A stretch of 64,000 bases of DNA, taken from an uncultured Anaerolineaceae bacterium (GTDB taxonomy: Bacteria; Chloroflexota; Anaerolineae; Anaerolineales; DRMV01). Below the pieces are notes generated by a model. That model was not told the DNA's origin and searched no databases. It saw only the letters and a list, made by a program, of their open reading frames with translations. The translations under genes were made by a program, and so were the position numbers. Below, piece after piece: positions 12,970 to 27,653 of the stretch. The stretch is from positions 19,871-83,870 of the forward strand of contig CAYUOX010000062.1 of NCBI GenBank assembly GCA_964446575.1. The letters are read 5' to 3'. Positions within the stretch are counted from its first letter, which is position 1; each line of letters begins with the position of its first letter.

Positions 12970-13008
12970 TTTTGCAAGAGAACACTCTAAAAAATTCCCG
13001 AGGTGAGC

Positions 13009-13989
13009 ATGGCCTTTGACCGCTATGGCCGGCGGCTGCATTACTTGCGCATCAGCCTGACCGACCACTGCAACCTGCGTTGCGTCTACTGCATGCCGGA
13101 AGACATGACCTTCCGGCCCAACCACGAGTTGATGCAAGACGACGAAATCTTGTTTTTCGTGCGTTTGTTTGCGGATCTGGGGTTCGACAAAATTCGCCTC
13201 ACCGGCGGCGAGCCCACAGTGCGGGCCGGCGTGGTGGACCTGGTGCGCGGCATTGCGGCGACGCGCGGCATTCGCACGGTCACCATGACCACCAACGGCA
13301 TCTTGTTGCCCAAATTGGCAGCAGCGTTGGCCCAGGCTGGGCTGCAGCGGGTCAATGTCAGCCTCGACACGTTAGATCCCAAAAAGTTCCGTCGTCTGAC
13401 CCGCTGGGGTGACCTGGAGGATGTGTTGGAAGGCATTCGGGCTGCGGAAGAGGCGGGTCTGACGCCCATCAAAATTAACGCGGTGGTGGTACGGGGCTAT
13501 AACGAAGCCGATGTGGTCGATCTGGCCGGGCTGACCTTGACGCGCGATTGGCAAGTGCGCTTCATCGAGATGATGCCCTTCGCGGGCGCGACCGACGTTC
13601 AACGCGCGCTGGTGGTCACCACCCACGAGATGATGGCCCAATTGCGCGCGGCTTACGGCGGCCTGGAGCCGGTGGACGGCGGCCGGCTGGACGGCGAAGC
13701 GCGGCTGTATCGGCTACCGGGCGCCCGGGGGACGGTGGGCTTCATCTCGACCATCAGCCAGCCCTTTTGCGCGTCGTGCACGCGCGTCCGGCTCACCGCG
13801 GACGGCCACTTGCGGCTCTGTTTGCTGCGCGAGCAAGAGGTCGACCTGCTCACGCCCTTGCGCCAGGGCGCGTCGCGTGAGACCCTGCGCCGCATGATCA
13901 CCGACGCGTTATGGGCCAAGCCGTGGGGGCACGGCCTGGCCCAAGGCGAAATTCCGCTCAACCGCACGATGAGCCAAATTGGGGGCTGA
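13009..13989 (+). CDS. moaA: GTP 3',8-cyclase MoaA (radical SAM)
   Basis: Track ORF starts at GTG 13003; ATG at 13009 gives MAFDRYGRRLHYLRISLTDHCNLRCVYCMP (CxxxCxxC). The C-terminal Cys cluster CASCTRVRLTADG is present. The start could be 13003. Confidence 0.9.
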   Translation: MAFDRYGRRLHYLRISLTDHCNLRCVYCMPEDMTFRPNHELMQDDEILFFVRLFADLGFDKIRLTGGEPTVRAGVVDLVRGIAATRGIRTVTMTTNGILLPKLAAALAQAGLQRVNVSLDTLDPKKFRRLTRWGDLEDVLEGIRAAEEAGLTPIKINAVVVRGYNEADVVDLAGLTLTRDWQVRFIEMMPFAGATDVQRALVVTTHEMMAQLRAAYGGLEPVDGGRLDGEARLYRLPGARGTVGFISTISQPFCASCTRVRLTADGHLRLCLLREQEVDLLTPLRQGASRETLRRMITDALWAKPWGHGLAQGEIPLNRTMSQIGG

Positions 13990-16763: not shown

Positions 16764-16879
16764 GGGTACCCTCCTATTGGGAGATGCGAACCAACCCAGC
16801 CAATGGGCAGCCATCCAATGTTCAGGATAGCGCTCGGTGCGGGCACGCGCCATTGTCATTCAGGCAAAAGCCCGGTTCC

Positions 16880-16953: not shown

Positions 16954-17580
16954 TTATTGTTCCTCGCCCGCCGGCGTACCGGCGAGGATCTCTAAACCCT
17001 TGTCGGGCGAATCGGCCGGCCGGCCCAGGGGCATGTCCTTCTTGATCACCAGGCGCTCGTACAAGATGGAGTTCTCCCAATCGCCGCCGCCCAAGATGTC
17101 GTTACCCTGGGCATCGGGCGCGCTGCGGTACGAACCGGCCAGGATGTCTTCGTAGGTCTCCAGGCTCAGGCCTGCGTTGGATTGGGTGCCGACGAAGTTG
17201 GCGTTGTGGCAGGCGGTGCAAGGCACCGAGCCCTCGTACCAAATGCCCATCTCGGTGAACAGCGGCAACACATCGGCCTCAAAGGTGGCCTGACAGGTTT
17301 GTCCGTCCAGGTCGGTGAAGGTGAACGGCTCGTCTTTGGGCGTGCCCGCGGCCACCCACGCGCCGATCAAGTCGGCCGGGTAGACCCGACAGCCCGCGGG
17401 GGCTTCGGCCACGGCCGCACCGGGTTCGGGGGTGGGTTCCGGCGGCAGCGTGGCCGGCGGCAGGGTGGGGATGGGCGTATGTTCGACCTGCGCGAAATCG
17501 GGCGCACCCTGAAGGCCACAACCCACCGCCACCACGGCCACCAGCGTGATCATCAGCCAAACGAAGATTCGCGTGCGCAT
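16954..17580 (-). CDS. lipoprotein monohaem c-type cytochrome
   Basis: ORF 16954..17580, ATG preceded by GAGGAGGTG. Lipobox VAVGCG, a Pro/Thr-rich linker, a single CTACH motif and a distal KKDMPLGRP (candidate Met ligand). It is the last gene of the ACIII-oriented run. Confidence 0.7.
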   Translation of the reverse strand: MRTRIFVWLMITLVAVVAVGCGLQGAPDFAQVEHTPIPTLPPATLPPEPTPEPGAAVAEAPAGCRVYPADLIGAWVAAGTPKDEPFTFTDLDGQTCQATFEADVLPLFTEMGIWYEGSVPCTACHNANFVGTQSNAGLSLETYEDILAGSYRSAPDAQGNDILGGGDWENSILYERLVIKKDMPLGRPADSPDKGLEILAGTPAGEEQ

Positions 17581-17615
17581 AAGGCGTCACCTCCTCGGGT
17601 TCGATGCAGGGGCCG

Positions 17616-18110
17616 TCATTGCCCGGCCTGGGCTTGCAAGGACCGAATGTAGTTGATCACATCCCAACGGTCCCGAATGGTCAGGCTCTCACGCATGGGG
17701 GGCATGTTGGGCGTGCCATTGGTGATGAACACAAACATGCCTTTGTCGTCCAGCGCGGAGGTCACCAAGTTGGCCGGCTTCAGGCCATAATCGGCCATCA
17801 CGCCGTCGCCCTGGCCTTGGGGACCGTGGCACACCGCGCAATGGATGTCATAGAGCACGCGGCCCCGCTGCAACGAGACTTCGTCCGCGGGCACGGGGTT
17901 GTCAGGGACGCCCACATACTTGACATACTCGGCCATATAGGGGACCGAATCCTCGGGCACCGGCAGCGGGTCTTCCATCGGCCGGTACGACGGTTGGTTC
18001 TCCATCATGGAAAGCCAGTCCACCTTGATGATCTCGTAGGTGAACAGCAATCCCACGATGAGGGGACCGCCCAGCAAAGTCAGGATGACGAACAGGCGTA
18101 GACCTTTCAT
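17616..18110 (-). CDS. actE: Alternative Complex III subunit ActE (monohaem cytochrome c, N-terminal anchor)
   Basis: ORF 17616..18110 with a 4-nt overlap with actD. One TM helix, a single CAVCHG and a downstream NMPPM. Confidence 0.75.
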   Translation of the reverse strand: MKGLRLFVILTLLGGPLIVGLLFTYEIIKVDWLSMMENQPSYRPMEDPLPVPEDSVPYMAEYVKYVGVPDNPVPADEVSLQRGRVLYDIHCAVCHGPQGQGDGVMADYGLKPANLVTSALDDKGMFVFITNGTPNMPPMRESLTIRDRWDVINYIRSLQAQAGQ

Positions 18111-18652
18111 ACGAACGACCCCTCCACTTCGGTGACCTCTTGCGCGCCTGCGGCCTGCAGGGCCTTGCGGGCCTCTTCGGCCAAGGTGCGCGAGGTTTGG
18201 AAGAACACCGCGATGGCGCTATCGCTGACCGCGGGGTGATACACCCGCTTGCCCACCACCGGCGGCAGCAGCGACTCGACCAAGACGCCGATGAAGGACG
18301 AGACCAGCAGGCCCAGCATGGTCAGTTCGAAGAGCAACACCAGGCTGGGCGGCACCGAATACAGGGGAAAGCCGCCCACATACAAGGGGTACAGCGCGGC
18401 TGTGCCATGGGTGAAAAACAGCCCCGACAGAAAGCCCAAGAACGCGCCTGCCAAGGCATATTTCGGCACCGCGGTCAACACCCGGGGCCGCCCTAAGATG
18501 CTGCTGGCATAAGGCACGCCGCTCTGAACCTGGATGAACTCATCGTCCACACCCACCTGGCGCAGGGCGTCCAACGCTGCCGGGACCTGCTCCACATCGT
18601 CGAAAACGGCCACGAACATCTGGGGCTCATAGCGCCCTTGATATCGCTCCAT
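18107..18652 (-). CDS. actD: Alternative Complex III subunit ActD (DUF3341-like)
   Basis: ORF 18107..18652, ATG after AAGGAGGG. Soluble N-domain (FVAVFDDVEQVPAALDALRQVG) plus two TM helices. Position between the NrfD-like and monohaem genes fits ActD. Confidence 0.75.
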   Translation of the reverse strand: MERYQGRYEPQMFVAVFDDVEQVPAALDALRQVGVDDEFIQVQSGVPYASSILGRPRVLTAVPKYALAGAFLGFLSGLFFTHGTAALYPLYVGGFPLYSVPPSLVLLFELTMLGLLVSSFIGVLVESLLPPVVGKRVYHPAVSDSAIAVFFQTSRTLAEEARKALQAAGAQEVTEVEGSFV

Positions 18653-18662
18653 GACGCCCTCC

Positions 18663-20108
18663 TTAGTCCAGAGACTCCAGGTCGCTCACCGCAGGCAGGA
18701 TGGCTTTGCCCACCCGCCGCCAGGTGTGCGAGTGCTGGCCCTCTTCCACTTCCCACACCGGGATCAACGGCAAGAACCGCGCCGCCAGGGTGTACAGGAA
18801 GAGGAACAGCATGAACGTGCCAAACACGATGGAGATTTCCACCAGTTGCGGTTCATACCAGCCCCAATCGAAGGGGAAGCGGTTGCGGCTCAGCGCGCCC
18901 GTCACAATGACATAGCGCTCCGCGAACATGCCGATGTTGACCACGATGCCCATGAGGAACATGAGCCACGGCGTGCGCCGGAACTTGCGGTTCCACAGCA
19001 ACAAGCCGGGGATGAACACGTTGCAGGTCACCATGGTCCACCACACGGGCGCGATGTCGCCGAACATGTAGAACTTGAGGATCTCCTTGACCGTGTGCTC
19101 GCCGCCGTACCATTCCAAGATGAACTCGTTGAAGAAGAAGTAGGCCCAACTCAGCGAGATGATCAGCAGCAGTTTGCCCAGCGCGTCGAAGTGCTCGGGC
19201 CGAATGAAGTAGCGCATGTTCTTGGTGGTGGCCCGCACGGTGAACAGCACCACATTCACGGCCGCAATGCCCGACAGCAGCGCGCCGATGATGAAGTAGG
19301 GCCCGAAGATGGTCGAGTGCCAACCCAACTTCATGGCCACCGCGAAGTCCCATGACACGATGGTGTGCACCGAGAACATCACCGGAATGATGGCCCACGC
19401 GAAGATCTGGATGGCCTTCTGCAGGTTCTTCCACTCTTGCTCGGTGCCCCGCCAGCCCAGGGCCAAGATGCCATACACCTTCTTGCGCCAGCCGGTGCTG
19501 CGGTCGCGGGCCATGGCCAAATCGGGAATCAACGGCATATAGAGATACAGGGTGCTGCCGATCAGGTAGGTGTTGATGGCGAAGAAGTCCCACAACAAGG
19601 GGGACCGCCAGTTGGGCCACAGCCAACGCTGATTCGGATAAGGCATCATCCAATAAAAGCGCCAAGTGCGGCCCAGGTGAATGAGGGGATACAGCCCCGC
19701 GGCGGCCAAGCCAAAAGTGGTCATCAACTCAGCCGCGCGAGTGAAGGGCCGCCGGAACTCGGCCTTGAACACCCGCAAAATGGCGGACACGAACGTGCCT
19801 GCGTGGCTGATGCCGATCCAAAACACGAATGCGACGATGAACAGCCCCCAGAAAATGGGCCGTCGAATGCCCGCCAGGCCCAGGCCTTTGAGCATCATAT
19901 AGCCCCAAGCGCCGAACAAGGTGACCGCGGTCAGCAACCCCAGCACGGTGACCGCGATTTTCCAGTCCCGGCTGGTGTCCTCCACGGCCTCCATGACCAT
20001 GTCGTTCATTTCGGCCCGGGACTTGTGGTCCAGCAGGAGATGTTCGCGTTTCATCTCCTCAATGCGGCGGGCTTCTTCTTCGTTGCGGGGGTGGAACTCA
20101 GAACTCAT
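18663..20108 (-). CDS. actC: Alternative Complex III subunit ActC (NrfD/PsrC-like quinol-interacting membrane subunit)
   Basis: ORF 18663..20108, 481 aa with about 10 TM helices. Contains FWGLFIVAFVFWIGISHAGTFVSAILRVF. The start overlaps the actB2 stop by 11 nt. Confidence 0.85.
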   Translation of the reverse strand: MSSEFHPRNEEEARRIEEMKREHLLLDHKSRAEMNDMVMEAVEDTSRDWKIAVTVLGLLTAVTLFGAWGYMMLKGLGLAGIRRPIFWGLFIVAFVFWIGISHAGTFVSAILRVFKAEFRRPFTRAAELMTTFGLAAAGLYPLIHLGRTWRFYWMMPYPNQRWLWPNWRSPLLWDFFAINTYLIGSTLYLYMPLIPDLAMARDRSTGWRKKVYGILALGWRGTEQEWKNLQKAIQIFAWAIIPVMFSVHTIVSWDFAVAMKLGWHSTIFGPYFIIGALLSGIAAVNVVLFTVRATTKNMRYFIRPEHFDALGKLLLIISLSWAYFFFNEFILEWYGGEHTVKEILKFYMFGDIAPVWWTMVTCNVFIPGLLLWNRKFRRTPWLMFLMGIVVNIGMFAERYVIVTGALSRNRFPFDWGWYEPQLVEISIVFGTFMLFLFLYTLAARFLPLIPVWEVEEGQHSHTWRRVGKAILPAVSDLESLD

Positions 20109-20817
20109 GGCGCCCTCCTGCCAGGTAGATCACCTTGGGCTCGGTGCCCAAGGCCTCTTCCAACTTGAAGGCCCGCTCGCTGGCGGCCAATTGGCGCACC
20201 CGGCTATTGGGGTCCCGCCAATTGCCGAAGACGATGGCCTCGGTGGGGCACGCTTGTGCGCACGCGGGCTGTACTTCGCCGTCGTACACTTCGCGGCCCT
20301 CGGCCTTGGCATCTTCCTCGGCCCGGCGGATGCGCTGGATGCAGAATGTGCACTTTTCCATGATGCCCCGGCGCCGCACCGTCACGTCGGGGTTGAGTTG
20401 GAAGTTGAGCGGCTCGGGCCACTCGTAATCGAACCAGTTGAAGGTGCGGGCGATATAAGGGCAGTTGTTGGCGCAGTAGCGGGTGCCGATGCAGCGGTTG
20501 TACACCTGGAGGTTGATCTCCTCGGCCTCGCTATGCAGCGTGGCATACACCGGGCACACGGGCTCGCAAGGCGCGTTGCTGCACTGTTGGCACATGGTCG
20601 GGATGTAGCGCACCCGCAGGTCGTCGCCTTCGCCTTCCCAATAGCGCTGCAGGCGCAGCCAGTGCATGCCCCGACCGTAGGCGTTCTCTTCTTCGCCCAC
20701 GAAGGCCACATTGTTCTCCATGGCGCACGCGGTCACGCACGCGCCGCAACCGTTACAACGGTCCAGGTCAATGACCATGACCCATTTGGTGTGTTCGTGT
20801 CCGTTACCACCAGCCAT
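20098..20817 (-). CDS. actB: Alternative Complex III iron-sulfur subunit (ActB2, 4Fe-4S ferredoxin-type)
   Basis: ORF 20098..20817. Cys clusters CNGCGACVTAC, CQQCSNAPCEPVC, CIGTRYCANNCP and CTFCIQR ... CAQACP are typical of CISM beta subunits. Confidence 0.85.
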   Translation of the reverse strand: MAGGNGHEHTKWVMVIDLDRCNGCGACVTACAMENNVAFVGEEENAYGRGMHWLRLQRYWEGEGDDLRVRYIPTMCQQCSNAPCEPVCPVYATLHSEAEEINLQVYNRCIGTRYCANNCPYIARTFNWFDYEWPEPLNFQLNPDVTVRRRGIMEKCTFCIQRIRRAEEDAKAEGREVYDGEVQPACAQACPTEAIVFGNWRDPNSRVRQLAASERAFKLEEALGTEPKVIYLAGGRHEF

Positions 20818-20830
20818 AACGCGCCTCTCC

Positions 20831-23011
20831 TTACTGGGCTACCCCATCGCCGTACACGCCGACCAAATGCTCTTTGCGGGCCAGGGGCCGTCGGCGGCCG
20901 GTCTTGCGCAACGAGACTCGCACACTGCCCCAAGCCAAATCGCCCGCGGCATTGGTCTGCGCACCCAGCAACTTGGCCGGATTCGCGCCCCGCCCTTCGG
21001 CCCAGCGGCCCAGGGCTTCGTGCCCTTGGCCAAAGGCCAGCGCCACCGTGTCGGGCCGAATGCCAGGGTACACATAGACCGCGGCGTACACCCGGCCGTA
21101 CGGCGAGCGGATTTCCACGATATCGTCGTGTCGCAGCCCCAGTTCGTGGGCCGTTTCAGGGTTGACTTCCACCCACGAGTTCCACATGACCGTGGTCATG
21201 GGCTCGGGGGTTTCTTGCAGCCAAGGCCGATTCGCGCCCGCGCCATCGCCCAAGATGGGATGCGGGTACACCACCAAGTGGAACTCGCCCTCACCAAAGC
21301 GCGGGGCGGGCACCTCCAGCGGCTGTTGCAAGAACGCGGTGGCGTCGAAAGGCTCCATGGCCGCGGGCTCTTGGGTCCACCAGCCACCGTGTTGCAAGAA
21401 ACGGCCCCAGAAGGCCTTGGGGGTGGCTTCCGCGTAGATGCCGCCCTCGGCCTGCATGAGTTGCGCCACGGCCTGTTGGACGAACTCGACTTCGTCTTTG
21501 TAAGGAACGGCTTCGGCCACCGCGCCGCCCATCGCCTGCACCGCGGCCAACAGCACGTCCGCGGTGGCTTTGGTGTCATAAAGCGGCACCACCACAGGCT
21601 GGGATGCCGTCACGGCCAGCCGGTCCGCGCCCACGCGCACCTTTTGGTAGCCCCACGACTCCAACGGGGTGTGGTCGGGGAAGATGTAGTCGGCTTGGGC
21701 CGCGGTTTCGTCGTAGAAGGGCGAGAAGGAAATGACCGTTTCGACTTGGGCCATGGCCTCGGCGAAGCCCAGCCCTGCAGGCAGTTCGAAGACCGGGTTG
21801 ACGCCGTGGATCAGCAACGCCTTGACCTCACCGGCCTTCATGCGGCGCACCAAGTCGGCCATGTCGCTCAGGCTGGCCGCGTCGCGGTCCTCGTAGATAG
21901 GTGCCGCGGGCAGCACCTGCACGCCACCGGGCTGGCCGAAGTTGCCAGCCCACGCGTTGAGGGCCAAGATGGCCTGCGCGGTCTCCAAGCCGTTGGTGTG
22001 CGCCAAGGCCGCGCCACCGGGGATGGCCAAGGGGCGCTCCGCGGTGGCGAAGTAATGCGCGATCTTCTCCAGCAGGGCCATTTCAATGCCGGCTTCTTCC
22101 GCGATGGCTGCCGCGTCCACATCAAACACGGGCGGGACTTCGCCATCGCGCATCTCCGCGGCCAAGCGCCCAATGGCCAAGGCAACCTGCCCCTCGGTGC
22201 CGGGTTTGAGGGCCACCCATTTGTCCGCGCTGGCCGCGGTCATCGACATGCGCGGCTCCAATTGCACGAACAGGCCCCGCACCCCAGGCCGGCCTCGCCG
22301 CATGTGGCCGTAGGCCCGGCTGAAGGCCACGGGCGACAACCAAGTTTCCATGAAGTTCGCGCCGAACGAGACCACGAAAGTGGCCTCCGCGATGTCGAAG
22401 TGCGGCAGGGCCTCTTGCCCCACCACGGCTTTCATGGCCTGCCGCAGGGTCTGACGGGCTTCGAACAGGGCCAGCCCGCCAAAGCGGATGGGCTTGGGCG
22501 CGCCCACGGCAGCCGCGATTTCCGCGACCAAATCGGCCAGATGGTCGGGCACCAACCCCAAGAGGAATTGCACTCCGGGGCCGGCCTGTAAGGCCTGGGC
22601 GACCACTTGCACCGCGTCGTCCCAAAGGAGTTCGCGCCACTCGCCGCTCCCGCGGCCTTGGGCTGCGCGCGGGCCACGCAAACGGTCGGGGTCGTAAAGC
22701 CCTTGCAAACTGGCCTGACCGCGCGCGCAGGTGCGGCCACGATTGACCGGATGCTGCGGATTGCCTTCCACCTTGATGGCGCGCCCCTCGACGGTGCGCA
22801 CCAAGATGCCGCACCCGGCAGGGCACTCGCGGCACAGGGTCGCAAAGTACACACTCTCGCCCGGCAATTGATACTCGGGCATGTCGGTGTAGGGTTTGCG
22901 GCGCACATAGCGGGACATGGGCCCACAGCCCGAGAGCACCGCCGCGACCGCGCCACCTACACCGGCCAGTTTGAGCACATCACGGCGTGTGAGTTTCTTT
23001 TCCTGGCTCAT
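20831..23011 (-). CDS. actB: Alternative Complex III molybdopterin-oxidoreductase-like subunit (ActB1) with TAT signal
   Basis: Track ORF 20831..23044; ATG at 23011 follows GAGGAG. Twin-arginine signal KLTRRDVLKLAGVGG and N-terminal Cys motif CRECPAGCG...C ARGQ. It is encoded separately from the FeS subunit. Confidence 0.85.
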   Translation of the reverse strand: MSQEKKLTRRDVLKLAGVGGAVAAVLSGCGPMSRYVRRKPYTDMPEYQLPGESVYFATLCRECPAGCGILVRTVEGRAIKVEGNPQHPVNRGRTCARGQASLQGLYDPDRLRGPRAAQGRGSGEWRELLWDDAVQVVAQALQAGPGVQFLLGLVPDHLADLVAEIAAAVGAPKPIRFGGLALFEARQTLRQAMKAVVGQEALPHFDIAEATFVVSFGANFMETWLSPVAFSRAYGHMRRGRPGVRGLFVQLEPRMSMTAASADKWVALKPGTEGQVALAIGRLAAEMRDGEVPPVFDVDAAAIAEEAGIEMALLEKIAHYFATAERPLAIPGGAALAHTNGLETAQAILALNAWAGNFGQPGGVQVLPAAPIYEDRDAASLSDMADLVRRMKAGEVKALLIHGVNPVFELPAGLGFAEAMAQVETVISFSPFYDETAAQADYIFPDHTPLESWGYQKVRVGADRLAVTASQPVVVPLYDTKATADVLLAAVQAMGGAVAEAVPYKDEVEFVQQAVAQLMQAEGGIYAEATPKAFWGRFLQHGGWWTQEPAAMEPFDATAFLQQPLEVPAPRFGEGEFHLVVYPHPILGDGAGANRPWLQETPEPMTTVMWNSWVEVNPETAHELGLRHDDIVEIRSPYGRVYAAVYVYPGIRPDTVALAFGQGHEALGRWAEGRGANPAKLLGAQTNAAGDLAWGSVRVSLRKTGRRRPLARKEHLVGVYGDGVAQ

Positions 23012-23079
23012 CCGTGCTTGTCTCCTCGCCTGGGGATGCAACAAAAAACCGCGTCGTTGGGGCCAGGCCCCAGGCGCGG

Positions 23080-23715
23080 TTACTTATGACAAGTTGCGCA
23101 GTCGGACAATTTGACGAAATGTTCCTCGTCGACCGAATTTTTGTGGCAACTCAGGCACCAGCCCATGTTTTGGTTTTTGATGGGCTCGGCTACGGTCATT
23201 TGCCCCACTTCGCCGTGGCAGGTTTCGCACGCGATGCCCGCGTTCACATGGGGCCGATGGCTGAAATAGACGAAGTCGGGCTGCATAGCCACCGGCACCC
23301 AAGGGATGGGCTCGTCTTGCATGGCATAGGGCCGCAACAAGCCCCGGCCTTCCGGCGGACCGCCTTGGCCCTCAGGGCCCTGGCTGGGTTTCCCTTGGCC
23401 TTGGCCCTTGCGGGCCGCGAACTCGTGCAAGCGCTTCTCCGCCGCGGTCTTGGGCTGGATGCTGTTGTGGCAGGCCATGCACTTGGTCAGCGACGGTAGG
23501 CCCGCGCTCACGCCCCGTTGCGCGTTGGAGTGGCAATACAAGCACGACATCCCCAAGTCTTGCACATGGCGCTGGTGGTTGAACTCCAACGGCTGAGCCG
23601 GGGGCTGCTGGCTCTGATAGAGCAGCACCGCGCCCCACAGCACCAGCGCGGCCAGCACCACACCCGCCACCCGCAACGCCACGCTCAGCAAACCACTGCG
23701 TTTGGCTTCGGTCAT
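23080..23715 (-). CDS. actA: Alternative Complex III pentahaem cytochrome c subunit ActA
   Basis: ORF 23080..23715, ATG after GAGGAG. N-terminal TM helix and five CXXCH motifs (CLYCH, CMACH, CETCH, CLSCH, CATCH). Confidence 0.85.
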   Translation of the reverse strand: MTEAKRSGLLSVALRVAGVVLAALVLWGAVLLYQSQQPPAQPLEFNHQRHVQDLGMSCLYCHSNAQRGVSAGLPSLTKCMACHNSIQPKTAAEKRLHEFAARKGQGQGKPSQGPEGQGGPPEGRGLLRPYAMQDEPIPWVPVAMQPDFVYFSHRPHVNAGIACETCHGEVGQMTVAEPIKNQNMGWCLSCHKNSVDEEHFVKLSDCATCHK

Positions 23716-23870: not shown

Positions 23871-24746
23871 TCAAGGCGCAGGCGTGGCCGTGTCTGCAGC
23901 ATCCGCCTCGCCTTCGGCAGCGTCTAATTCGACACCTTTGCCGCTGCGCAGCCGCTCCAACAAGGCTTCGGCCTGCAACTGCGCATTGTGGGTGATGGGG
24001 AAGGTCAGATATTGTTCCAAATCCGCGATGGCCTCGTCGATCTTCCCCAAATTGGCATAGGCGATGGCCCGGTTGAAGTAGACCGCGGCCATGTCAGGGT
24101 TCAACGCTACCACCTTATTGAACGCTTCTAACGCGTCTTCGTCGCGCCCTTGCTTCAAATACAGGCTGCCCAAGTTGAACCACGCGGCCTCTGACTCGGG
24201 GTCCAGTTCCAAAGCCTTTTGGAAGTCTTGCTCGGCCAAATCGTAGATGTCCATTTGGAAATAGGCCAAGCCTCGGTTGATGAACACACTGGCCTCATCG
24301 GCCAGGCCGAATTGTAAGGCTTTGTTGAAATCTTCAACAGCCGAGACCGGCCGGCCCAAACTCAGCAGGACATTGCCACGGGCGGCGAAGGCCTCAGGGA
24401 AATGAGGGTTCTGCTCGAGGGCCTTGTTCAGGTCTTCCAACGCGGCCTCGTTTTCGCCCAACTCCAATTGCAGCAAGGCCCGATAGTAATAGGCTTGCGG
24501 GGCCGCGTCGGGGGCGGCCGCGATGGCAATGTCCAGGGCTTCCAGCGCGCCTTGCACATCACCGGCCGCGCTGCGCTCCAAAGCCAAATTGACGAAATCG
24601 TTGACCACCTCGGCCCGGCTGGCGGGCGGTGGCGTAGCCGCAGCCGCGGTCTGCTGTTGCCACAACACATACCCGCTGCCGACCAACAACATCGCGGCCA
24701 CCGCGGCCAACCAGGTCGAGGGACGGCGCCACCAAACTCGCTTCAT
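23871..24746 (-). CDS. membrane-anchored tetratricopeptide (TPR) repeat protein
   Basis: Track ORF 23871..24776; ATG at 24746 follows AGGTGG. One N-terminal TM helix, then repeated A..Y..RG/A..LG....A..DF..AL..P units (about 7 TPR-like repeats). Confidence 0.75.
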   Translation of the reverse strand: MKRVWWRRPSTWLAAVAAMLLVGSGYVLWQQQTAAAATPPPASRAEVVNDFVNLALERSAAGDVQGALEALDIAIAAAPDAAPQAYYYRALLQLELGENEAALEDLNKALEQNPHFPEAFAARGNVLLSLGRPVSAVEDFNKALQFGLADEASVFINRGLAYFQMDIYDLAEQDFQKALELDPESEAAWFNLGSLYLKQGRDEDALEAFNKVVALNPDMAAVYFNRAIAYANLGKIDEAIADLEQYLTFPITHNAQLQAEALLERLRSGKGVELDAAEGEADAADTATPAP

Positions 24747-24804
24747 GGGCAAACCACCTGCTGTGAAAGTTGTCACGAATTGTACCCCGTTTCGTCAAGG
24801 GCGC

Positions 24805-24840
24805 AAAATGCGGGGAGGACCAGGGATCGGTCCTCCCCGC
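24805..24840 (-). terminator. intrinsic terminator after the 12-haem cytochrome gene
   Basis: Perfect 12-bp stem GCGGGGAGGACC / GGTCCTCCCCGC (24810..24821 / 24829..24840) with a 7-nt loop, followed on the minus strand by ATTTTG. Confidence 0.6.
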
Positions 24841-24870
24841 ATGAGAGGGTGCGGCTCTACCTCGGGGGTG

Positions 24871-27492
24871 CTATGCGCCCTTTTGTCGCAGGGCCATGGC
24901 ACCGATGCCCAGCAGCAGGCCGATGACCAGCGCGGCCACCGCGTAACCTACCGGCACGCCCGTGGGGGCTTCGGCAGGCATCTCGGCCGGGGCCTCTGCC
25001 GCCGCCTCGGCCGCGGTCTGCTCGGCTGCCGCCTCCATCTCGCTCATCTGCTGCTTCAGGGTCTCCACCTCTTCCATGGCCTTCTTACCGGCCACCGCAT
25101 CATGGATCAGTTGGTTCATCAGGTTGATGTGGTCTTCGTTGGAGATGACCTGACCGTAGATGGCGATGACCTCATCCGTCCAGAAGGCCGGATCGACCAT
25201 GTTCTGGTGGCACCCCATGCACACGCCCACCCGCTCCATCTTGGTGCGCTTGTCAGCATCCAAGGGGCGGGAAGCCGGCCAGTGCTGACCGACGGTGACC
25301 AATTGCTCGCCCGTCTCGGGATCGAGCACCACGCTCCAATCGAAGGGCAGGTCGGGGATGGGCTGCATCTGCGGCTGGGTGTTCTGCGGGATCACATTGC
25401 CTTCCGCATCGACCAGGTCGATGTAGCGCGGCTCGGTGTAACCCCGCATGAAGATGCCGTTCTTGATGCCATAGCCCAAGGCCTTGGGGTCGTTGTGGCA
25501 CGACTCGCAAGTGCGAGCCTTGGCGCCCACGGTGTGCGGTTGCGCCGGCGCCATGTCGATGCCCCGCTGGCCTTCCTCACCCGCGCCTTCGGTGTTGGGC
25601 GGCGTGCGACCGATCTTGTTGTGCACCAGCGTGGTCCCATCGGGCCCGATGACGGTGTAGACCACTTGGCAGCCCGGAATGATGGGCGTCACCCGGCCTT
25701 CACCGTTGATGCCCAAGATGGGATCCTCCCAGCGCAGGTAGGCCCGACCTTCGGAGGCCTTACCTGGCTGCTTCTCGGTGTTCTTGCTGAATTCCAGGTG
25801 CTTGGCCGCACCGCCCGCCTCGCGGTACTTGTTGGCCGTCAAGATCCACGAGGTCGAGGTCTTCTCGCCGCTGTAGTCCACGACCACATGGCAGCCATAG
25901 CACTGCGGCGCCCACGAAGCATGGCACGCGTAGCACTCCATGTTGTCCATATGGGCGCCGATCTTGTCCATGGCCACCTGCGAGTCCATGGACTTCCAGG
26001 TGCCTTCTTCCTTGATCTTCTTCAGCAGCGGGACCTCGAAGTCCTTGCCATTGGCCGAGTGCAAGATGACCTTGTCGCCCGACTTGACCACGTTGCCGAA
26101 GGGGTTGCCGCGCGCGGTCAGCAGGTAGCCATCTTCCATGGGATAAATCATGCCGTAGGTCATCCACAGCGGCAGATTATCCTTCCACAGCCCGCGCGGG
26201 GATTCCAGGTCAACCCCTTCCAGAGCCGCGGTCAACTCCTCTTCCTGGTAGCCCAAGGGCAGTTCCCACGGGTAGGCGTCGGGCGTACCGTGGCAGTCCG
26301 CGCACTCGATCTCCACCTGGGCCAGGGTGGTGCCATAGATGTTGCCGTCACCGTGCATGTCGATGCTGGTGTGGCAGTCTTGGCACAACAAGCCACCCTT
26401 CTCGGGGTCCAGGCCCGCGTGGTGGATGTCATCCTGGATGAACAGGTATTGCTTGGTGTGCAGTTTGGGCTGCTTGCCACCCTTCTCGTTGAAGGGCGTG
26501 CCATAGGGGAATTCCATGATGCCCTCGTAACTCACGCCAATGCGCTTGCCGCGGTTGTGGCACGAGTTACAGGTTTCGACGGGAATCCCGCTGTAGGTCT
26601 TGTCGCCCACGGTCACTTGGGTGTCGCGGGTGGCCTGGATTTGGTGCACCAGGATGTGGCCGGGCTCGTCTTTGGGGATGGTGGGGTCGTTGCCCTCGTA
26701 GTAGCCCTCATTGCTGTAGGGCATGTGGCAGGCCGAGCAGCCCGTGCCCCGCCAGTCGCCCCGCTTGGCCCGCGGCGGCGTAGCCACATGGCAGCGCTGG
26801 CAGTCGCTGTGCATGTAGGTGAAGGACGCATACGCGGGGTTCTCGACGATTTCCTCCACCGTGGGCAGCGGCAGGCCTTCCAGTTTGTCGGGAATCTGAT
26901 CCGGCCAGGCCTTCTTCAAGGCTTCGGCATAGGCCTTGTAGGTGTCAGTACCGAAGATGGGGGTCGGCCCGTCCGTATCTTCGATGTCATAGTTGCCGTA
27001 GCGGACCTTGTGGATGTTGTCCGGATCCAGGCCATAGGGGCCACCAAACGCGCCAAAGGCCCACAGCGTGCCGTGGATCTTGCCGGCCTCGGTGTTCATG
27101 AGGGACTTTTGCAGCGCGTCGGCATAGCCCGGATGGCACTTGCCGCAGGTCTTGTCCGCGATCCACAGGTTCCCGGGGTCGGCGTAGAACGGTTGGCCAT
27201 TGCCGCCGTGCGCGGCGTTCTTGGCCTCTTCGTCGTTCATGTCCTCCGCGGTCACCGTGGGATCGCCGCCATGGCACGCAGTACACTGCCCCATGGCGTT
27301 GATCTGCTTCATCATGTCACTGTCTTGCGGGCGAATGTCTTCGATGCCCGCGTGACACGAGAGACAGCCCTCTTCTTCCTGGGCTACCACAGCCTGGGCC
27401 GCGCCCGTTTGGTCGCCCGCGTACACGCCTACGGCGACCAAGGCCACGGTCAGGAGGGTCAGCACCAGGGCCAACATCAGGCGTCGTCTCAT
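24871..27492 (-). CDS. 12-haem c-type cytochrome, signal peptide plus C-terminal transmembrane anchor
   Basis: Track ORF starts at GTG 27501; ATG at 27492 lies 7 nt after AAAGGAGGT. Twelve CXXCH motifs: CLSCH, CTACH, CGKCH, CQRCH, CSACH, CNSCH, CQDCH, CADCH, CYACH, CYGCH, CESCH, CMGCH. Ala/Glu-rich helix and hydrophobic tail VGYAVAALVIGLLLGIGAMAL at the C-terminus. Confidence 0.85.
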   Translation of the reverse strand: MRRRLMLALVLTLLTVALVAVGVYAGDQTGAAQAVVAQEEEGCLSCHAGIEDIRPQDSDMMKQINAMGQCTACHGGDPTVTAEDMNDEEAKNAAHGGNGQPFYADPGNLWIADKTCGKCHPGYADALQKSLMNTEAGKIHGTLWAFGAFGGPYGLDPDNIHKVRYGNYDIEDTDGPTPIFGTDTYKAYAEALKKAWPDQIPDKLEGLPLPTVEEIVENPAYASFTYMHSDCQRCHVATPPRAKRGDWRGTGCSACHMPYSNEGYYEGNDPTIPKDEPGHILVHQIQATRDTQVTVGDKTYSGIPVETCNSCHNRGKRIGVSYEGIMEFPYGTPFNEKGGKQPKLHTKQYLFIQDDIHHAGLDPEKGGLLCQDCHTSIDMHGDGNIYGTTLAQVEIECADCHGTPDAYPWELPLGYQEEELTAALEGVDLESPRGLWKDNLPLWMTYGMIYPMEDGYLLTARGNPFGNVVKSGDKVILHSANGKDFEVPLLKKIKEEGTWKSMDSQVAMDKIGAHMDNMECYACHASWAPQCYGCHVVVDYSGEKTSTSWILTANKYREAGGAAKHLEFSKNTEKQPGKASEGRAYLRWEDPILGINGEGRVTPIIPGCQVVYTVIGPDGTTLVHNKIGRTPPNTEGAGEEGQRGIDMAPAQPHTVGAKARTCESCHNDPKALGYGIKNGIFMRGYTEPRYIDLVDAEGNVIPQNTQPQMQPIPDLPFDWSVVLDPETGEQLVTVGQHWPASRPLDADKRTKMERVGVCMGCHQNMVDPAFWTDEVIAIYGQVISNEDHINLMNQLIHDAVAGKKAMEEVETLKQQMSEMEAAAEQTAAEAAAEAPAEMPAEAPTGVPVGYAVAALVIGLLLGIGAMALRQKGA

Positions 27493-27628
27493 AGACCGCA
27501 CCTCCTTTGGTAGAGTATCGAGATGGGCGTCGAGAGCCGCAACACGCCAAGAGGCGCCTCCCTCTTCGCCCCTTCATTTTCCATTAATTCAACCCCTGAG
27601 GCATCCCACAGGGGCATGATTCATATCA

Positions 27629-27653
27629 CCCTGGAGGGTGATTTCATGAGTCA
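27629..27653. promoter_or_regulatory. bipartite motif CCCTGGAGGG-6 nt-CATGAGTCA upstream of the 12-haem cytochrome gene
   Basis: Exact 10-mer at 27629..27638 inside the palindrome TCACCCTggAGGGTGA (27626..27641). Exact 9-mer at 27645..27653. The same two words with the same 6-nt gap occur at 54645..54669. Confidence 0.45.

What the first reader, a model, noticed from the sequence alone, without database searches (positions are those of the whole stretch)
24871..27492. 873-aa, 12-haem, tail-anchored cytochrome with large haem-free inserts that I cannot place in a named family
The translation has a signal-like N-terminus (RRRLMLALVLTLLTVALVAVGVYA) and twelve canonical CXXCH motifs. Eight of them lie in the first half. 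The C-terminal half has three stretches of roughly 100 residues or more without haem motifs, between CADCH/CYACH, CYGCH/CESCH and CESCH/CMGCH. These look like inserted non-haem, possibly beta-rich, domains. The protein ends in an Ala/Glu-rich helix (EEVETLKQQMSEMEAAAEQTAAEAAAEAPAE) and a single hydrophobic anchor. Haem wire, insert domains and tail anchor together resemble a surface-exposed terminal reductase or oxidase more than a small electron shuttle. I do not recognise it as HAO, NrfA, Otr, MtrA/OmcA or MccA type by eye.
Basis: partly seen in the sequence, partly recalled or inferred. Interest (0 to 1): 0.65.

Follow-up and report, generated by a model that had tools for sequence, protein, structure and literature searches.

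The report
Uncharacterised 12-haem respiratory cytochrome family
The gene is real and encodes a membrane-anchored protein carrying twelve haem groups; it belongs to a large, highly conserved and never-studied family that sits next to quinol-oxidising respiratory complexes and is probably switched on when oxygen is scarce, so it probably carries or delivers respiratory electrons outside the cytoplasm, but its substrate is unknown.

Summary
The minus-strand ORF 24871-27492 encodes 873 aa with 12 CXXCH motifs, a Sec-type N-terminus, folded and conserved haem-free domains, and a C-terminal helix plus one transmembrane anchor.

It matches no characterised enzyme family and no solved structure by sequence profile or Foldseek. 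It is not an orphan either. More than 2,500 protein clusters in at least 563 species genomes share 50-60% identity with it. The hosts include Chloroflexota, Thermaceae, Alpha- and Gammaproteobacteria and others. The family is a separate clade of the superfamily of ExtM, the uncharacterised 12-haem subunit of Geobacter Cbc6, and all 12 haem sites are collinear.

In the window it is followed by a TPR protein and an alternative-complex-III/Qrc-type operon. Related Chloroflexota loci carry ACIII or Rieske/cytochrome b modules, NirS and haem-copper oxidases. Proteobacterial copies lack the tail, have FNR boxes (27-fold enriched) and FnrL/FixK-like regulators, and lie beside or inside ccm genes.

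Haem 10 is the only variable haem in the superfamily. It covaries with the lone invariant Cys608 (p=3e-10), which suggests a His/Cys haem.

Best reading: a low-oxygen respiratory electron-output module fed by quinol oxidases, possibly a terminal reductase. The substrate is unknown.

The parts
24871..27492 (-). Gene for the 873-aa, 12-haem cytochrome (stop codon included)
   Evidence: ORF and translation. The same 873-aa gene is called on the source contig.
27501..27507 (-). Shine-Dalgarno AAGGAGG, 8 nt upstream of ATG 27492
   Evidence: Read from the sequence.
27625..27642 (-). Perfect palindrome ATCACCCT-CC-AGGGTGAT in the promoter region; candidate operator
   Evidence: A similar TCACCCTCGGGGGTGA lies about 90 nt upstream of the 92%-identical orthologue in L017. 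Function not tested.
27418..27492 (-). N-terminal signal-like hydrophobic segment (aa 1-25, RRR...VYA|G)
   Evidence: Hydropathy. Diderm homologues have ordinary Sec signal peptides. Cleavage not tested.
27133..27384 (-). Haems 1-3, c7-type trihaem module (aa 37-120)
   Evidence: Pfam PF14522: 49.7 bits against a cut-off of 24.8.
26809..27132 (-). Haem-free, mostly helical domain (aa 121-228), containing conserved Met132
   Evidence: AF2 model with pLDDT 85-98. Met132 is invariant in the core family and alternates with His in distant relatives.
26284..26808 (-). Haems 4-8, pentahaem module resembling MtrC/MtrF domains II/IV (aa 229-403)
   Evidence: Pfam PF22113: 42.5 bits against a cut-off of 30, profile positions 7-165 of 176. 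This is the most conserved block, with 55% of columns at least 90% identical.
25936..26283 (-). Haem-free beta-rich domain (aa 404-519)
   Evidence: AF2 strands 455-487 with pLDDT about 85-93. 33% of columns are at least 90% conserved.
25888..25935 (-). Haems 9 and 10 (CYACH-x6-CYGCH, aa 520-535); haem 10 is the only variable haem of the superfamily
   Evidence: Haem 10 is lost in 31 of 106 representatives; every other haem is lost in 4 or fewer.
25510..25887 (-). Haem-free beta-rich domain (aa 536-661) carrying invariant motifs LRWE, GxNGEGR and PGCQ
   Evidence: AF2 strands 574-649. Invariant columns.
25669..25671 (-). Codon of Cys608, the only cysteine outside a CXXCH motif; candidate sixth ligand or partner of haem 10
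   Evidence: 99% conserved in the core family. It covaries with the haem-10 motif among 50%-identity representatives: [[24,4],[10,52]], Fisher p=3e-10.
25495..25509 (-). Haem 11 motif CESCH (aa 662-666)
25222..25494 (-). Haem-free stretch (aa 667-757)
   Evidence: 28% of columns are at least 90% conserved. Model confidence is mixed, 60-87.
25207..25221 (-). Haem 12 motif CMGCH (aa 758-762)
24958..25140 (-). Long helix with Ala/Glu/Pro-rich linker ('stalk', aa 785-845)
   Evidence: AF2 helix 785-833. Not conserved. Present only in the long form of the family, 70 of the 120 closest homologues.
24874..24957 (-). C-terminal Gly-rich transmembrane anchor with a basic end (aa 846-873)
   Evidence: Hydropathy and AF2 helix 848-872. 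Tails of homologues are compared. NCBIfam reports no sorting-signal domain.
23871..24776 (-). Membrane-anchored TPR protein, the conserved downstream partner
   Evidence: Pfam TPR hits. Orthologues lie immediately downstream on the same strand in 24 of 88 loci.
23080..23715 (-). ActA/QrcA-like pentahaem subunit
   Evidence: Five CXXCH motifs. QrcA model 104 bits.
20831..23044 (-). ActB1/QrcB-like molybdopterin-fold subunit with a Tat signal
20098..20817 (-). ActB2/QrcC-like 4Fe-4S subunit
18663..20108 (-). ActC (NrfD-type quinol-interacting membrane subunit)
   Evidence: Pfam PF03916.
18107..18652 (-). ActD
   Evidence: Pfam PF11821, 82 bits.
17616..18110 (-). ActE-like monohaem class-I cytochrome c
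   Evidence: Pfam PF13442.
16954..17580 (-). Lipoprotein with one CTACH motif; probable membrane-tethered electron carrier ending the operon
   Evidence: Translation. No family hit.

Best explanation
The protein is an extracytoplasmic 12-haem electron-output module of the anaerobic or microaerobic respiratory chain. It is exported by Sec and matured by the Ccm system. In this Anaerolineales-type organism a C-terminal helix and one transmembrane segment hold it at the outer face of the cytoplasmic membrane.

It is co-encoded with a TPR helper protein and an alternative-complex-III/Qrc-type quinol:cytochrome c oxidoreductase. The proposed electron path is menaquinol -> ActC/ActB -> ActA/ActE haems -> the conserved 11-haem chain of this protein. 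The chain combines a c7-like trihaem module, an MtrC-like pentahaem module and three further haems.

The twelfth, evolutionarily optional haem (haem 10) sits in the beta-rich C-terminal domain and is probably ligated or flanked by the invariant Cys608. I propose this site is where electrons leave to a soluble acceptor. That would make the protein a terminal reductase rather than only a shuttle.

Shown here: sequence features, family size, conservation, gene neighbourhoods, FNR-box enrichment, and the haem-10/Cys608 covariation.

Inferred: coupling to ACIII, the direction of electron flow, His/Cys ligation, and catalytic function. The substrate is unknown.
For: (1) Twelve CXXCH motifs, a signal peptide and an anchor.

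(2) The closest named relative is ExtM (NF040943, E 4e-65). Intermediates score 350-430 bits on the ExtM model, and all 12 haem sites are collinear. ExtM is the 12-haem protein of the Geobacter Cbc6/'bc complex' cluster, which includes a Rieske protein and cytochrome b. That cluster is predicted to be a quinol:cytochrome c oxidoreductase (PMC2825233, PMC5877670, PMC13591261).

(3) In the window the gene and its TPR partner directly precede ActA, B1, B2, C, D and E on the same strand, with no terminator found between them.

(4) In 11 of 17 Chloroflexota loci with enough downstream sequence, the cytochrome-TPR pair heads an ACIII or a Rieske/cytochrome b module. NirS or a haem-copper oxidase subunit I is often adjacent.

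(5) Regulation by low oxygen. FnrL/FixK-like regulators are divergently encoded in 18 loci. FNR boxes are enriched 27-fold in the 300 nt upstream of the gene.

(6) The pattern of constraint looks like that of an enzyme. Identity is 50-60% across phyla, with many invariant polar residues in the haem-free domains.

(7) Haem 10 is the only variable haem and covaries with Cys/Met at position 608, p=3e-10.

(8) Proteobacterial copies are stand-alone genes with their own FNR-type promoter. That suits a terminal enzyme drawing on the general periplasmic electron pool.
Against: - No experiment exists for any member of the family, nor for ExtM.
- Conserved His, Met and Cys candidates number about 12 for 12 haems, so there is no obvious five-coordinate catalytic haem.
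The Fisher test treats representatives as independent, which ignores their phylogeny.
- ACIII already has its own exit haems (ActA, ActE), and the operon also encodes a monohaem lipoprotein. The 12-haem protein is therefore not needed as a simple carrier, and adjacency does not prove electron transfer.
- The ActB/C subunits score best on Qrc models, and Qrc runs in the opposite direction (cytochrome -> quinone).
- In most proteobacterial loci no complex-III-type module is nearby.
Confidence: 0.45

Rival explanations
1. It is a pure electron wire or hub with no catalysis of its own. The 12-haem protein only relays or stores electrons between the quinol oxidase (ACIII or Rieske/cytochrome b) and separate terminal enzymes such as NirS, haem-copper oxidases or NO reductases. 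The stalk places it level with stalked partners in a monoderm envelope.
For: - About 12 conserved axial-ligand candidates for 12 haems, so no open coordination site is evident.
- ExtM sits in a cluster whose catalytic polysulfide reductase is a different protein, ExtKL/MccSep, which has an 'unidentified electron donor' (bioRxiv 10.1101/2025.11.18.688581).
- NirS is directly adjacent in L002, L013 and L081, and NirS in L013 has its own Ala/Glu-rich stalk.
- Multihaem class-I cytochromes are also present in these operons.
Against: - Electron shuttles usually diverge quickly. Here the haem-free domains keep 23-33% of columns at least 90% identical across phyla.
- Proteobacteria already have soluble cytochromes c for NirS, yet keep this 780-aa protein as a separately FNR-regulated gene.
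- The optional haem 10/Cys608 site is hard to explain for a simple wire.
Confidence: 0.25
2. It is an electron-input module. The protein oxidises a periplasmic or extracellular donor (reduced sulfur compound, Fe(II), or a partner hydrogenase or cytochrome) and feeds the electrons through the Qrc-like complex into the menaquinone pool, as Desulfovibrio TpIc3-Qrc does.
For: - ActA, B1 and B2 score best on QrcA, QrcB and QrcC models, all below their cut-offs.
- A His/Cys haem would resemble the thiosulfate- and sulfur-oxidising cytochromes TsdA and SoxA (established knowledge).
- Many carriers are sulfur oxidisers: Thiosymbion, Beggiatoa-like, Sedimenticola, Acidiferrobacter, Woeseia.
Against: - ActD and ActE are ACIII hallmarks, not Qrc ones.
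- The neighbours are electron sinks (NirS, haem-copper oxidase) rather than donor-oxidising enzymes.
- FNR-type induction fits acceptor-side enzymes.
- No donor-specific genes recur in the 88 loci.
Confidence: 0.1
3. It is a cell-surface metal or mineral reductase for extracellular electron transfer, analogous to MtrC/OmcA or the Gram-positive OcwA.
For: - Haems 4-8 match the MtrC/MtrF domain II/IV profile above its cut-off.
- Haem modules are interleaved with beta-rich domains, as in MtrC/OmcA.
- The stalk plus anchor would project the protein about 7 nm from the membrane of a monoderm-type cell. This distance is inferred from the 49-residue helix.
Against: - The family-level OmcA/MtrC model fails: 27 bits against a cut-off of 209.
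- There is no structural match to MtrC, OmcA, UndA or OcwA chains by Foldseek or by profile.
- The named diderm (proteobacterial, Oceanithermus) homologues inspected are soluble periplasmic proteins with no lipobox and no MtrA/MtrB-type partners. Only a Porin_5-like gene appears, in 6 loci.
- The anchor is lineage-specific.
Confidence: 0.1
4. Its role is tied to cytochrome c biogenesis itself, for example as a haem or electron buffer for the Ccm system, rather than to respiration.
For: - CcmF lies within 8 kb in 22 of 88 loci.
- The gene, with its TPR/u200 or Rap1a-like partner, is embedded inside the ccm locus in Oceanithermus profundus and in a Thalassospiraceae MAG.
- The TPR partner weakly resembles the CcmI/CycH TPR domain: 33.8 bits against a cut-off of 42.
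Against: - A 12-haem protein is itself the heaviest Ccm client, which explains the linkage more simply.
- Chloroflexota loci, including the window, show no ccm genes but do show respiratory modules.
- No precedent is known.
Confidence: 0.04

Closest known systems
ExtM (GSU2935), the 12-haem cytochrome of the Geobacter sulfurreducens extHIJKLMNOPQS / Cbc6 (CbcMNOPQR) cluster
   Same: - It is the only named family with a strong hit: NF040943, 220 bits, E 4e-65 over aa 229-769.
- Both have 12 haems, and all 12 CXXCH sites and the haem-free domains are collinear with ExtM-like intermediates.
- Cys608 and haem 10 are present in those ExtM-like intermediates.
- Both are encoded beside a quinol-oxidising membrane module (PMC2825233, PMC5877670).
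   Different: - The score is far below the 800-bit equivalog cut-off.
- The window protein is about 170 aa longer in its core, plus about 90 aa of stalk and anchor.
- Its partner module here is ACIII/Qrc-type, not Rieske/cytochrome b. No ExtKL, ExtN, rhodanese or porin genes are present.
- ExtM itself has no demonstrated function (PMC13591261).
MtrC/OmcA/MtrF outer-surface decahaem cytochromes
   Same: Haems 4-8 match the pentahaem domain II/IV profile PF22113 above its threshold. Haem modules alternate with beta-rich domains.
   Different: - TIGR03507 scores 27 bits against a cut-off of 209.
- There is no Foldseek or profile match to solved Mtr/Omc structures.
- It has 12 haems, not 10.
- There is no lipoprotein signal and there are no MtrAB partners.
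- The named diderm homologues carry ordinary Sec signal peptides with no lipobox, so they are predicted to be periplasmic.
Alternative complex III (ActABCDEF) and the Desulfovibrio Qrc complex with their cytochrome partners
   Same: The gene is the first of an operon-like string with ActA, B1, B2, C, D and E. As with TpIc3-Qrc or cytochrome c-ACIII, a periplasmic-side multihaem protein would exchange electrons with the pentahaem or hexahaem subunit.
   Different: It is not homologous to any Act or Qrc subunit. To my knowledge no 12-haem subunit occurs in the solved ACIII structures. This ACIII has a split ActB and no ActF.
His/Cys-ligated haem cytochromes (TsdA, SoxA, DsrJ, NaxLS)
   Same: A single conserved Cys outside the haem-binding motifs is coupled in evolution to one particular haem. 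Some relatives have Met at that position, as expected of an axial ligand.
   Different: There is no sequence similarity. Ligation has not been shown. Those proteins have 1-3 haems.
NrfA with its dedicated maturation factors NrfEFG
   Same: A multihaem protein is encoded next to CcmF/H/I-type lyase genes and a TPR protein.
   Different: There is no CXXCK or other non-canonical motif. The adjacent CcmF does not reach the NrfE-specific cut-off (631 bits against 927) and in Oceanithermus appears to be the only Ccm system. There is no similarity to NrfA.
Anammox-type Rieske/cytochrome b complexes with multihaem and NAD(P)-oxidoreductase-like subunits
   Same: In L005, L011, L016, L025 and L057 the cytochrome(-TPR) is followed by a GltD-like FeS flavoprotein, cytochrome b, subunit IV, a Rieske protein and a multihaem class-I cytochrome c. 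In L005 and L057 NirS comes next. The resemblance in composition is drawn from established knowledge of the anammox complexes.
   Different: Homology of the multihaem subunits was not tested. That arrangement is not present in the window itself.

Membership tests
ExtM (NCBIfam NF040943 equivalog) | Whole-protein score at or above the curated cut-off of 800 bits | tested here: not met
   220.2 bits, E 4.1e-65, aa 229-769 matching profile positions 146-583 of 599.
ExtM (NCBIfam NF040943 equivalog) | Twelve collinear CXXCH motifs with the same haem-free domains | tested here: met
   Alignment A2 includes proteins scoring 350-430 bits on the ExtM model. C43 through C758 all align, and the haem-free domains align as well. 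A bona fide ExtM (at least 800 bits) was not in hand.
ExtM (NCBIfam NF040943 equivalog) | Encoded with ExtN, a Rieske protein (ExtO), cytochrome b (ExtP) and ExtKL | tested here: not met
   The window has an ACIII/Qrc-type module instead. Some family members (L005, L011, L016, L025, L057) do sit beside Rieske/cytochrome b genes.
OmcA/MtrC decahaem family (TIGR03507) | Family model score of at least 209 bits | tested here: not met
   27.1 bits.
OmcA/MtrC decahaem family (TIGR03507) | Pentahaem domain II/IV (PF22113) present | tested here: met
   42.5 bits against a gathering cut-off of 30, aa 229-403.
OmcA/MtrC decahaem family (TIGR03507) | Lipoprotein signal and porin-cytochrome (MtrAB-type) partners | tested here: not met
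   No lipobox in the window protein or in diderm homologues. No such neighbours in 88 loci.
Catalytic multihaem enzymes (NrfA, HAO/HDH, Otr, MccA, ONR) | Detectable homology to the family, or a diagnostic motif (CXXCK, CX15CH, and so on) | tested here: not met
Cytochrome c7-type trihaem domain (PF14522) | Domain score at or above the gathering cut-off | tested here: met
   49.7 bits against 24.8, aa 37-120.
Alternative complex III subunits (ActA-ActH) | Homology to a known Act subunit | tested here: not met
   No Act, Qrc or NrfD family hit for the 12-haem protein. Only its neighbours are Act subunits.
His/Cys-ligated haem cytochromes | A cysteine thiolate as the sixth ligand of a c-type haem | tested here: inconclusive
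   Covariation of Cys608 with haem 10, p=3e-10. No coordinates, spectroscopy or haem-containing model were available.
Sortase/exosortase-type C-terminal sorting signals | A recognised signature motif upstream of the TM helix and basic tail | tested here: not met
   No CTERM or LPXTG model reported by NCBIfam at E<=1. Tails of homologues share only a loose GGxN / Gly-rich TM / basic pattern.

The most novel reading that the evidence does not exclude
This is a member of an unrecognised class of FNR-controlled terminal oxidoreductases. It is a ~770-aa, 12-haem periplasmic enzyme whose active site is a His/Cys-ligated accessory haem (haem 10/Cys608) in a beta-domain. It occurs in more than 560 species of marine-sediment and hydrothermal bacteria from at least seven phyla. 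It is fed by ACIII, Rieske/cytochrome b or soluble cytochromes, and it reduces (or oxidises) a so far unassigned sulfur, selenium or nitrogen compound during anaerobic respiration.
Probability: 0.3. Interest if true: 0.8.

Novelty: new variant of a known kind. Interest (0 to 1): 0.58.

Why it matters
Multihaem cytochromes carry out much of anaerobic nitrogen, sulfur and metal cycling, and only a handful of families have known functions. This family is large: more than 2,500 clusters at 90% identity, in at least 563 species genomes. It is unusually conserved across phyla and is wired into the respiratory chain, beside ACIII, Rieske/cytochrome b, NirS, haem-copper oxidases and FNR regulators.

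Assigning its function would annotate thousands of 'hypothetical' or 'cytochrome C' genes in sediment and symbiont genomes. It could reveal a missing respiratory reaction. It would also shed light on ExtM/Cbc6 of Geobacter, whose role is still unknown.

The family has culturable carriers (Oceanithermus profundus DSM 14977, O. desulfurans, Tropicimonas, Aliiruegeria, Aliiroseovarius), so the question can be tested directly. The haem-10/Cys608 covariation gives a precise site for mutagenesis.

Tried and rejected
- **Foldseek of the full-length AF2 model against PDB:** no match at E<=0.001.
- **Sequence searches against PDB chains:** phmmer with the single sequence and hmmsearch with the 65-sequence profile gave only spurious hits.
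- **Modelling the C-terminal half alone (aa 403-760, 20-sequence alignment) for a domain-level fold search:** pLDDT 41, so it was discarded and not searched.
- **tblastn against PLSDB plasmids:** only distant 22%-coverage hits in Sphingobium megaplasmids, annotated as hypothetical or multihaem cytochrome.
- **Literature searches:** accession numbers of cultured-organism homologues returned nothing. Multihaem + ACIII + Chloroflexi/Anaerolineae returned nothing specific.
- **Typing the adjacent CcmF as a dedicated NrfE-like lyase:** ambiguous. It passes the generic CcmF/NrfE model and falls below the NrfE-specific cut-off. No non-canonical haem motif exists that would require a dedicated lyase.
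- **C-terminal sorting signal or sortase substrate:** no recognised domain.
- **GTG start at 27501:** rejected because it overlaps the Shine-Dalgarno sequence.
- **The 996-aa plus-strand ORF 24523..27513:** rejected as an antisense artefact of a 62-65% GC gene. My first greedy ORF picker wrongly chose it in 18 loci, and this was corrected.
- **Pairing other axial ligands with their haems by covariation:** not possible, because the other 11 haems are almost never lost.

Full report
**1. The observation**

The minus-strand ORF 24871..27492 encodes 873 aa. The ATG at 27492 lies 8 nt downstream of AAGGAGG. The alternative GTG at 27501 overlaps that ribosome-binding site. GroEL, just upstream, ends in a strong terminator at 27712-27686. 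The same 873-aa product is called on the public source contig, ENA ERZ27262694 k141_293289, 160.6 kb.

There are 12 CXXCH motifs, at aa 43, 70, 116, 231, 252, 308, 370, 397, 520, 531, 662 and 758. Composition-preserving shuffles give a mean of 0.03 and a maximum of 2. The protein has 25 cysteines, 24 of them in the motifs. It has no CXXCK and no extended motif. The N-terminus (RRR, a hydrophobic stretch, then VYA|G) looks like a Sec signal. Residues ~846-870 form a second hydrophobic helix.

An AlphaFold2 model built on 65 homologues has pLDDT 77.6 and pTM 0.77. The stretches 404-519 and 536-661 are beta-rich with high confidence, and 121-228 is helical. Residues 785-833 form one long helix and 848-872 a transmembrane helix. 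The haem-free stretches keep 23-33% of their columns at least 90% identical among homologues. The Ala/Glu tail keeps none. A fourth haem-free stretch, between haems 3 and 4, was overlooked.

**2. Family**

Pfam recognises only generic modules. These are a c7-type trihaem domain (aa 37-120) and an MtrC/MtrF domain II/IV-type pentahaem module (aa 229-403), both above their thresholds. The only strong NCBIfam hit is ExtM (NF040943), at 220 bits and E 4e-65 over aa 229-769, well below the 800-bit equivalog cut-off. OmcA/MtrC, DmsE, HmcA and NrfH models score at noise level.

The protein is nonetheless far from an orphan. The word-indexed search returned more than 2,549 clusters, and the top 120 are full-length at 50-91% identity. 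They include Anaerolineales, Ardenticatenia, Caldilineae, Thermaceae/Oceanithermus and Rhodobacteraceae (Tropicimonas, Aliiruegeria, Aliiroseovarius, Roseibium). They also include Rhodospirillales, Woeseia, Thiosymbion, Sedimenticola, Beggiatoa-like and Competibacteraceae, plus Acidimicrobiia, Planctomycetota, Gemmatimonadales and Dadabacteria. Source annotations read 'cytochrome C', 'multiheme c-type cytochrome' or 'hypothetical protein'.

In the exhaustive search of 50%-identity representatives, the orthologous family collapses to about six representatives. These lie inside a superfamily of 1,946 representatives, 383 of them below 1e-30. More distant full-length members score 350-430 bits on the ExtM model. 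They align with all 12 haem motifs and with the haem-free domains. The window protein is therefore a distinct, tight clade of an ExtM-like 12-haem superfamily. The 'inserts' are ancestral to that fold.

**3. What is known about ExtM**

GSU2935 is a 12-haem, 68-kDa cytochrome. It is conserved in all Geobacter genomes within a cluster that also encodes a 10-haem cytochrome, a Rieske protein and a cytochrome b. The cluster has been called a 'bc complex' and later Cbc6/CbcMNOPQR. It is predicted to be a quinol:cytochrome c oxidoreductase of unknown physiological role (PMC2825233; PMC5877670; bioRxiv 10.1101/2021.04.15.440034; PMC13591261). The neighbouring ExtKL (MccSep) has been shown to be a polysulfide reductase with an unidentified electron donor (bioRxiv 10.1101/2025.11.18.688581). 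ExtM itself has never been characterised.

**4. Context in the window**

Downstream on the same strand, with no terminator-like site detected between genes, lie:
- a membrane-anchored TPR protein (23871-24776);
- a pentahaem ActA/QrcA-like protein (23080-23715);
- a Tat-exported molybdopterin-fold ActB1/QrcB-like protein (20831-23044);
- a 4Fe-4S ActB2/QrcC-like protein (20098-20817);
- NrfD-type ActC (18663-20108);
- ActD (18107-18652);
- a monohaem ActE-like cytochrome (17616-18110);
- a lipoprotein with one CTACH motif (16954-17580).

Together they form an alternative-complex-III/Qrc-type quinol:cytochrome c oxidoreductase.

**5. Context elsewhere**

I called ORFs in 88 loci and clustered the neighbours.

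- **Immediately downstream, same strand.** A ~289-aa TPR protein follows in 24 loci (Chloroflexota, Thermaceae, Gammaproteobacteria), often followed by a ~200-aa protein with no family hit (12 loci). In Alphaproteobacteria and some others a ~129-aa Rap1a-like periplasmic protein follows instead (20 loci; Pfam).
- **Chloroflexota.** The cytochrome-TPR pair heads an ACIII module (window, L002, L012, L019, L020, L081) or a module of GltD-like FeS flavoprotein, cytochrome b, subunit IV, Rieske protein and multihaem class-I cytochrome c (L005, L011, L016, L025, L057). That is 11 of 17 loci with enough downstream sequence. NirS is adjacent in L002, L005, L013, L057 and L081. A haem-copper oxidase subunit I lies between the TPR gene and ActA in L012 and L020. 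Two-component regulator genes usually lie upstream.
- **Alphaproteobacteria.** The gene is divergent from an FnrL/FixK-like regulator followed by CcmF, CcmH and CcmI.
- **Oceanithermus profundus DSM 14977 and a Thalassospiraceae MAG.** The gene and its small partners are embedded inside the ccm locus.
- **FNR boxes.** The motif TTGAY-N4-RTCAA occurs 10 times in 30.6 kb of 300-nt upstream windows and 15 times in the remaining 1.23 Mb. That is a 27-fold enrichment, and all hits are in proteobacterial loci.

The recurrent themes are quinol-oxidising complex-III analogues, denitrification and oxidase genes, low-oxygen regulators, and the cytochrome c maturation system.

**6. The tail**

The helix plus anchor is present in 70 of the 120 closest homologues (median length 867 aa). 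It is absent from the rest (median 784 aa), which end about 40 residues after haem 12. The short-form copies I inspected, from Roseibium, Oceanithermus and two unnamed contigs, have ordinary Sec signals. The tails are not conserved in sequence. They share only an Ala/Pro/Glu linker, a loose GGxN, a Gly-rich TM helix and a basic end. No sorting-signal model matches them. The conserved functional unit is thus a soluble periplasmic ~770-aa protein. The tail appears to be an adaptation that tethers it, on a ~49-residue helical stalk, to the membrane of Chloroflexota-type envelopes.

**7. A special haem**

Cys608, in the invariant PGCQ motif inside a beta-strand of the second beta-rich domain, is the only cysteine outside the haem motifs. 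It is 99% conserved in the core family.

Across the 50%-identity representatives, haem 10 (C531xxCH) is the only haem that is frequently absent: 31 of 106, against 4 or fewer for each of the others. Its presence tracks Cys (or Met) at position 608. The contingency table is [[24,4],[10,52]], Fisher p=3e-10. The test ignores phylogenetic non-independence, but the losses occur in several dissimilar sub-lineages.

Conserved candidates for distal ligands are H95, M132, H283, H345, H357, H380, H514, C608, H653, H737 and H788, plus H358 or H478. That makes about 12 for 12 haems. M132 and H380 alternate His/Met in distant relatives, as axial ligands do.

The simplest reading is an invariant 11-haem chain plus an accessory haem that is ligated or flanked by Cys608. 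His/Cys haems are known from TsdA, SoxA, DsrJ and NaxLS (established knowledge), where they have very low potentials and/or reactive roles. I could not verify the contact, because model coordinates are not exposed and the model has no haems.

**8. Mechanism**

I commit to the following. The protein is an extracytoplasmic electron-output module of low-oxygen respiration. In this organism it is co-produced with ACIII. Electrons would pass from menaquinol through ActC/ActB to the ActA/ActE haems and into the 11-haem chain. The haem-10/Cys608 site in the beta-domain is the likely point of delivery to a soluble acceptor, which would make the protein a terminal reductase.

Arguments for catalysis rather than a pure wire:
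- cross-phylum conservation of the non-haem domains;
- the optional Cys-coupled haem;
- the stand-alone, FNR-controlled genes in Proteobacteria.

Arguments against:
- no evident open haem coordination site;
- ExtM's probable role as a relay in Cbc6.

Overall confidence is 0.45.

Rivals:
- pure wire or hub to NirS and oxidases (0.25);
- reverse, Qrc-like electron input from a donor (0.10);
- Mtr-like surface metal reductase (0.10);
- Ccm-related role (0.04).

**9. Comparison and novelty**

The protein works most like ExtM/Cbc6-type multihaem partners of quinol oxidoreductases. Its modules resemble c7 and MtrC pentahaem units. It fails the membership tests for ExtM proper, OmcA/MtrC and all catalytic multihaem enzyme families with solved structures.

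It is best classed as a new variant of a known kind: a multihaem respiratory cytochrome associated with complex-III analogues. It belongs to a large family that has not been named or studied. The association of a 12-haem protein with ACIII, its embedding in ccm loci, and the haem-10/Cys608 couple are, as far as the searched literature shows, undescribed.

I score interest at 0.58. A specialist would want to know the substrate, and culturable carriers make the question testable. Nothing here yet contradicts existing concepts.

Noticed in passing
window 16954-23715 (minus strand): This is an alternative-complex-III-type operon of unusual composition. ActB is split into a molybdopterin-fold subunit and a FeS subunit, and both score best on Desulfovibrio QrcB/QrcC models. 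ActD and ActE are present, and no ActF is seen. The last gene encodes a lipoprotein with a single CTACH motif and no family hit.
   Followed up: partly
window 27625-27642 (minus strand); L017 about 90 nt upstream of its orthologue; L009 about 307 nt upstream: A perfect 8+2+8 palindrome, ATCACCCT-CC-AGGGTGAT, lies between the GroEL terminator and the cytochrome gene. Near-identical TCACCC...GGGTGA palindromes lie upstream of two related Chloroflexota genes. This may be an operator for the two-component regulators often encoded upstream in Chloroflexota loci.
   Followed up: partly
window 24523-27513 (plus strand): A 996-aa open reading frame runs antisense to the cytochrome gene. It is longer than the real gene and is a typical high-GC artefact. 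A naive longest-ORF picker chose it in 18 of 88 loci.
   Followed up: yes
L089 (Oceanithermus profundus DSM 14977, CP002361.1 628024-650393) 10001-13840; also L004, L049, L060, L058: The cytochrome, a TPR protein and a ~195-aa protein with no family hit are inserted, in opposite orientation, in the middle of what appears to be the organism's only ccm locus (ccmC-I on one side, ccmB, ccmA and ccdA on the other). In a Thalassospiraceae MAG (L058) the cytochrome and its Rap1a-like partner sit between ccmC and ccmE on the same strand.
   Followed up: partly
L013 5656-7536: The NirS encoded directly upstream of the cytochrome gene has a lipoprotein-type N-terminus followed by a ~100-residue Ala/Glu-rich, coiled-coil-like linker. 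This resembles the stalk on the cytochrome's C-terminus. Several respiratory enzymes in these Chloroflexota may be held on stalks above the membrane.
   Followed up: no
L005, L011, L016, L025, L057 (downstream of the cytochrome): A ~670-aa GltD-like NAD(P)-binding FeS flavoprotein precedes cytochrome b, subunit IV, a Rieske protein and a four-haem class-I cytochrome c. This composition recalls the anammox Rieske/cytochrome b complexes that carry an NAD(P) oxidoreductase subunit.
   Followed up: no
L012 4715-6310 and L020 (between the TPR gene and ActA): A haem-copper oxidase subunit I (CtaD model 335 bits, below its 671-bit cut-off) is encoded between the cytochrome-TPR pair and the ACIII genes. 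Whether it is an O2 or an NO reductase was not examined.
   Followed up: no
L002 7387-7671 and L081 (between the Crp-family regulator and NirS): A 94-aa protein with the 'hybrid cluster protein-associated redox disulfide' domain (TIGR03980/DUF1858) lies upstream of NirS and the cytochrome gene.
   Followed up: no
NCBIfam models NF040967 (ExtN) and NF040968 (ExtO): The two models give nearly identical hits (72.4 and 72.3 bits, same residues 503-670, same profile positions) on this c-type cytochrome. Yet ExtO is described in the literature as a Rieske Fe-S protein. The two models may have been built from the same or mislabelled sequences.
   Followed up: no
window 13003-13989 (plus strand): This ORF begins with a radical-SAM-like CNLRCVYC motif and may be MoaA. 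It lies beside the PPDK gene (14004-16859) that ends the respiratory gene string. It was not checked against any library.
   Followed up: no
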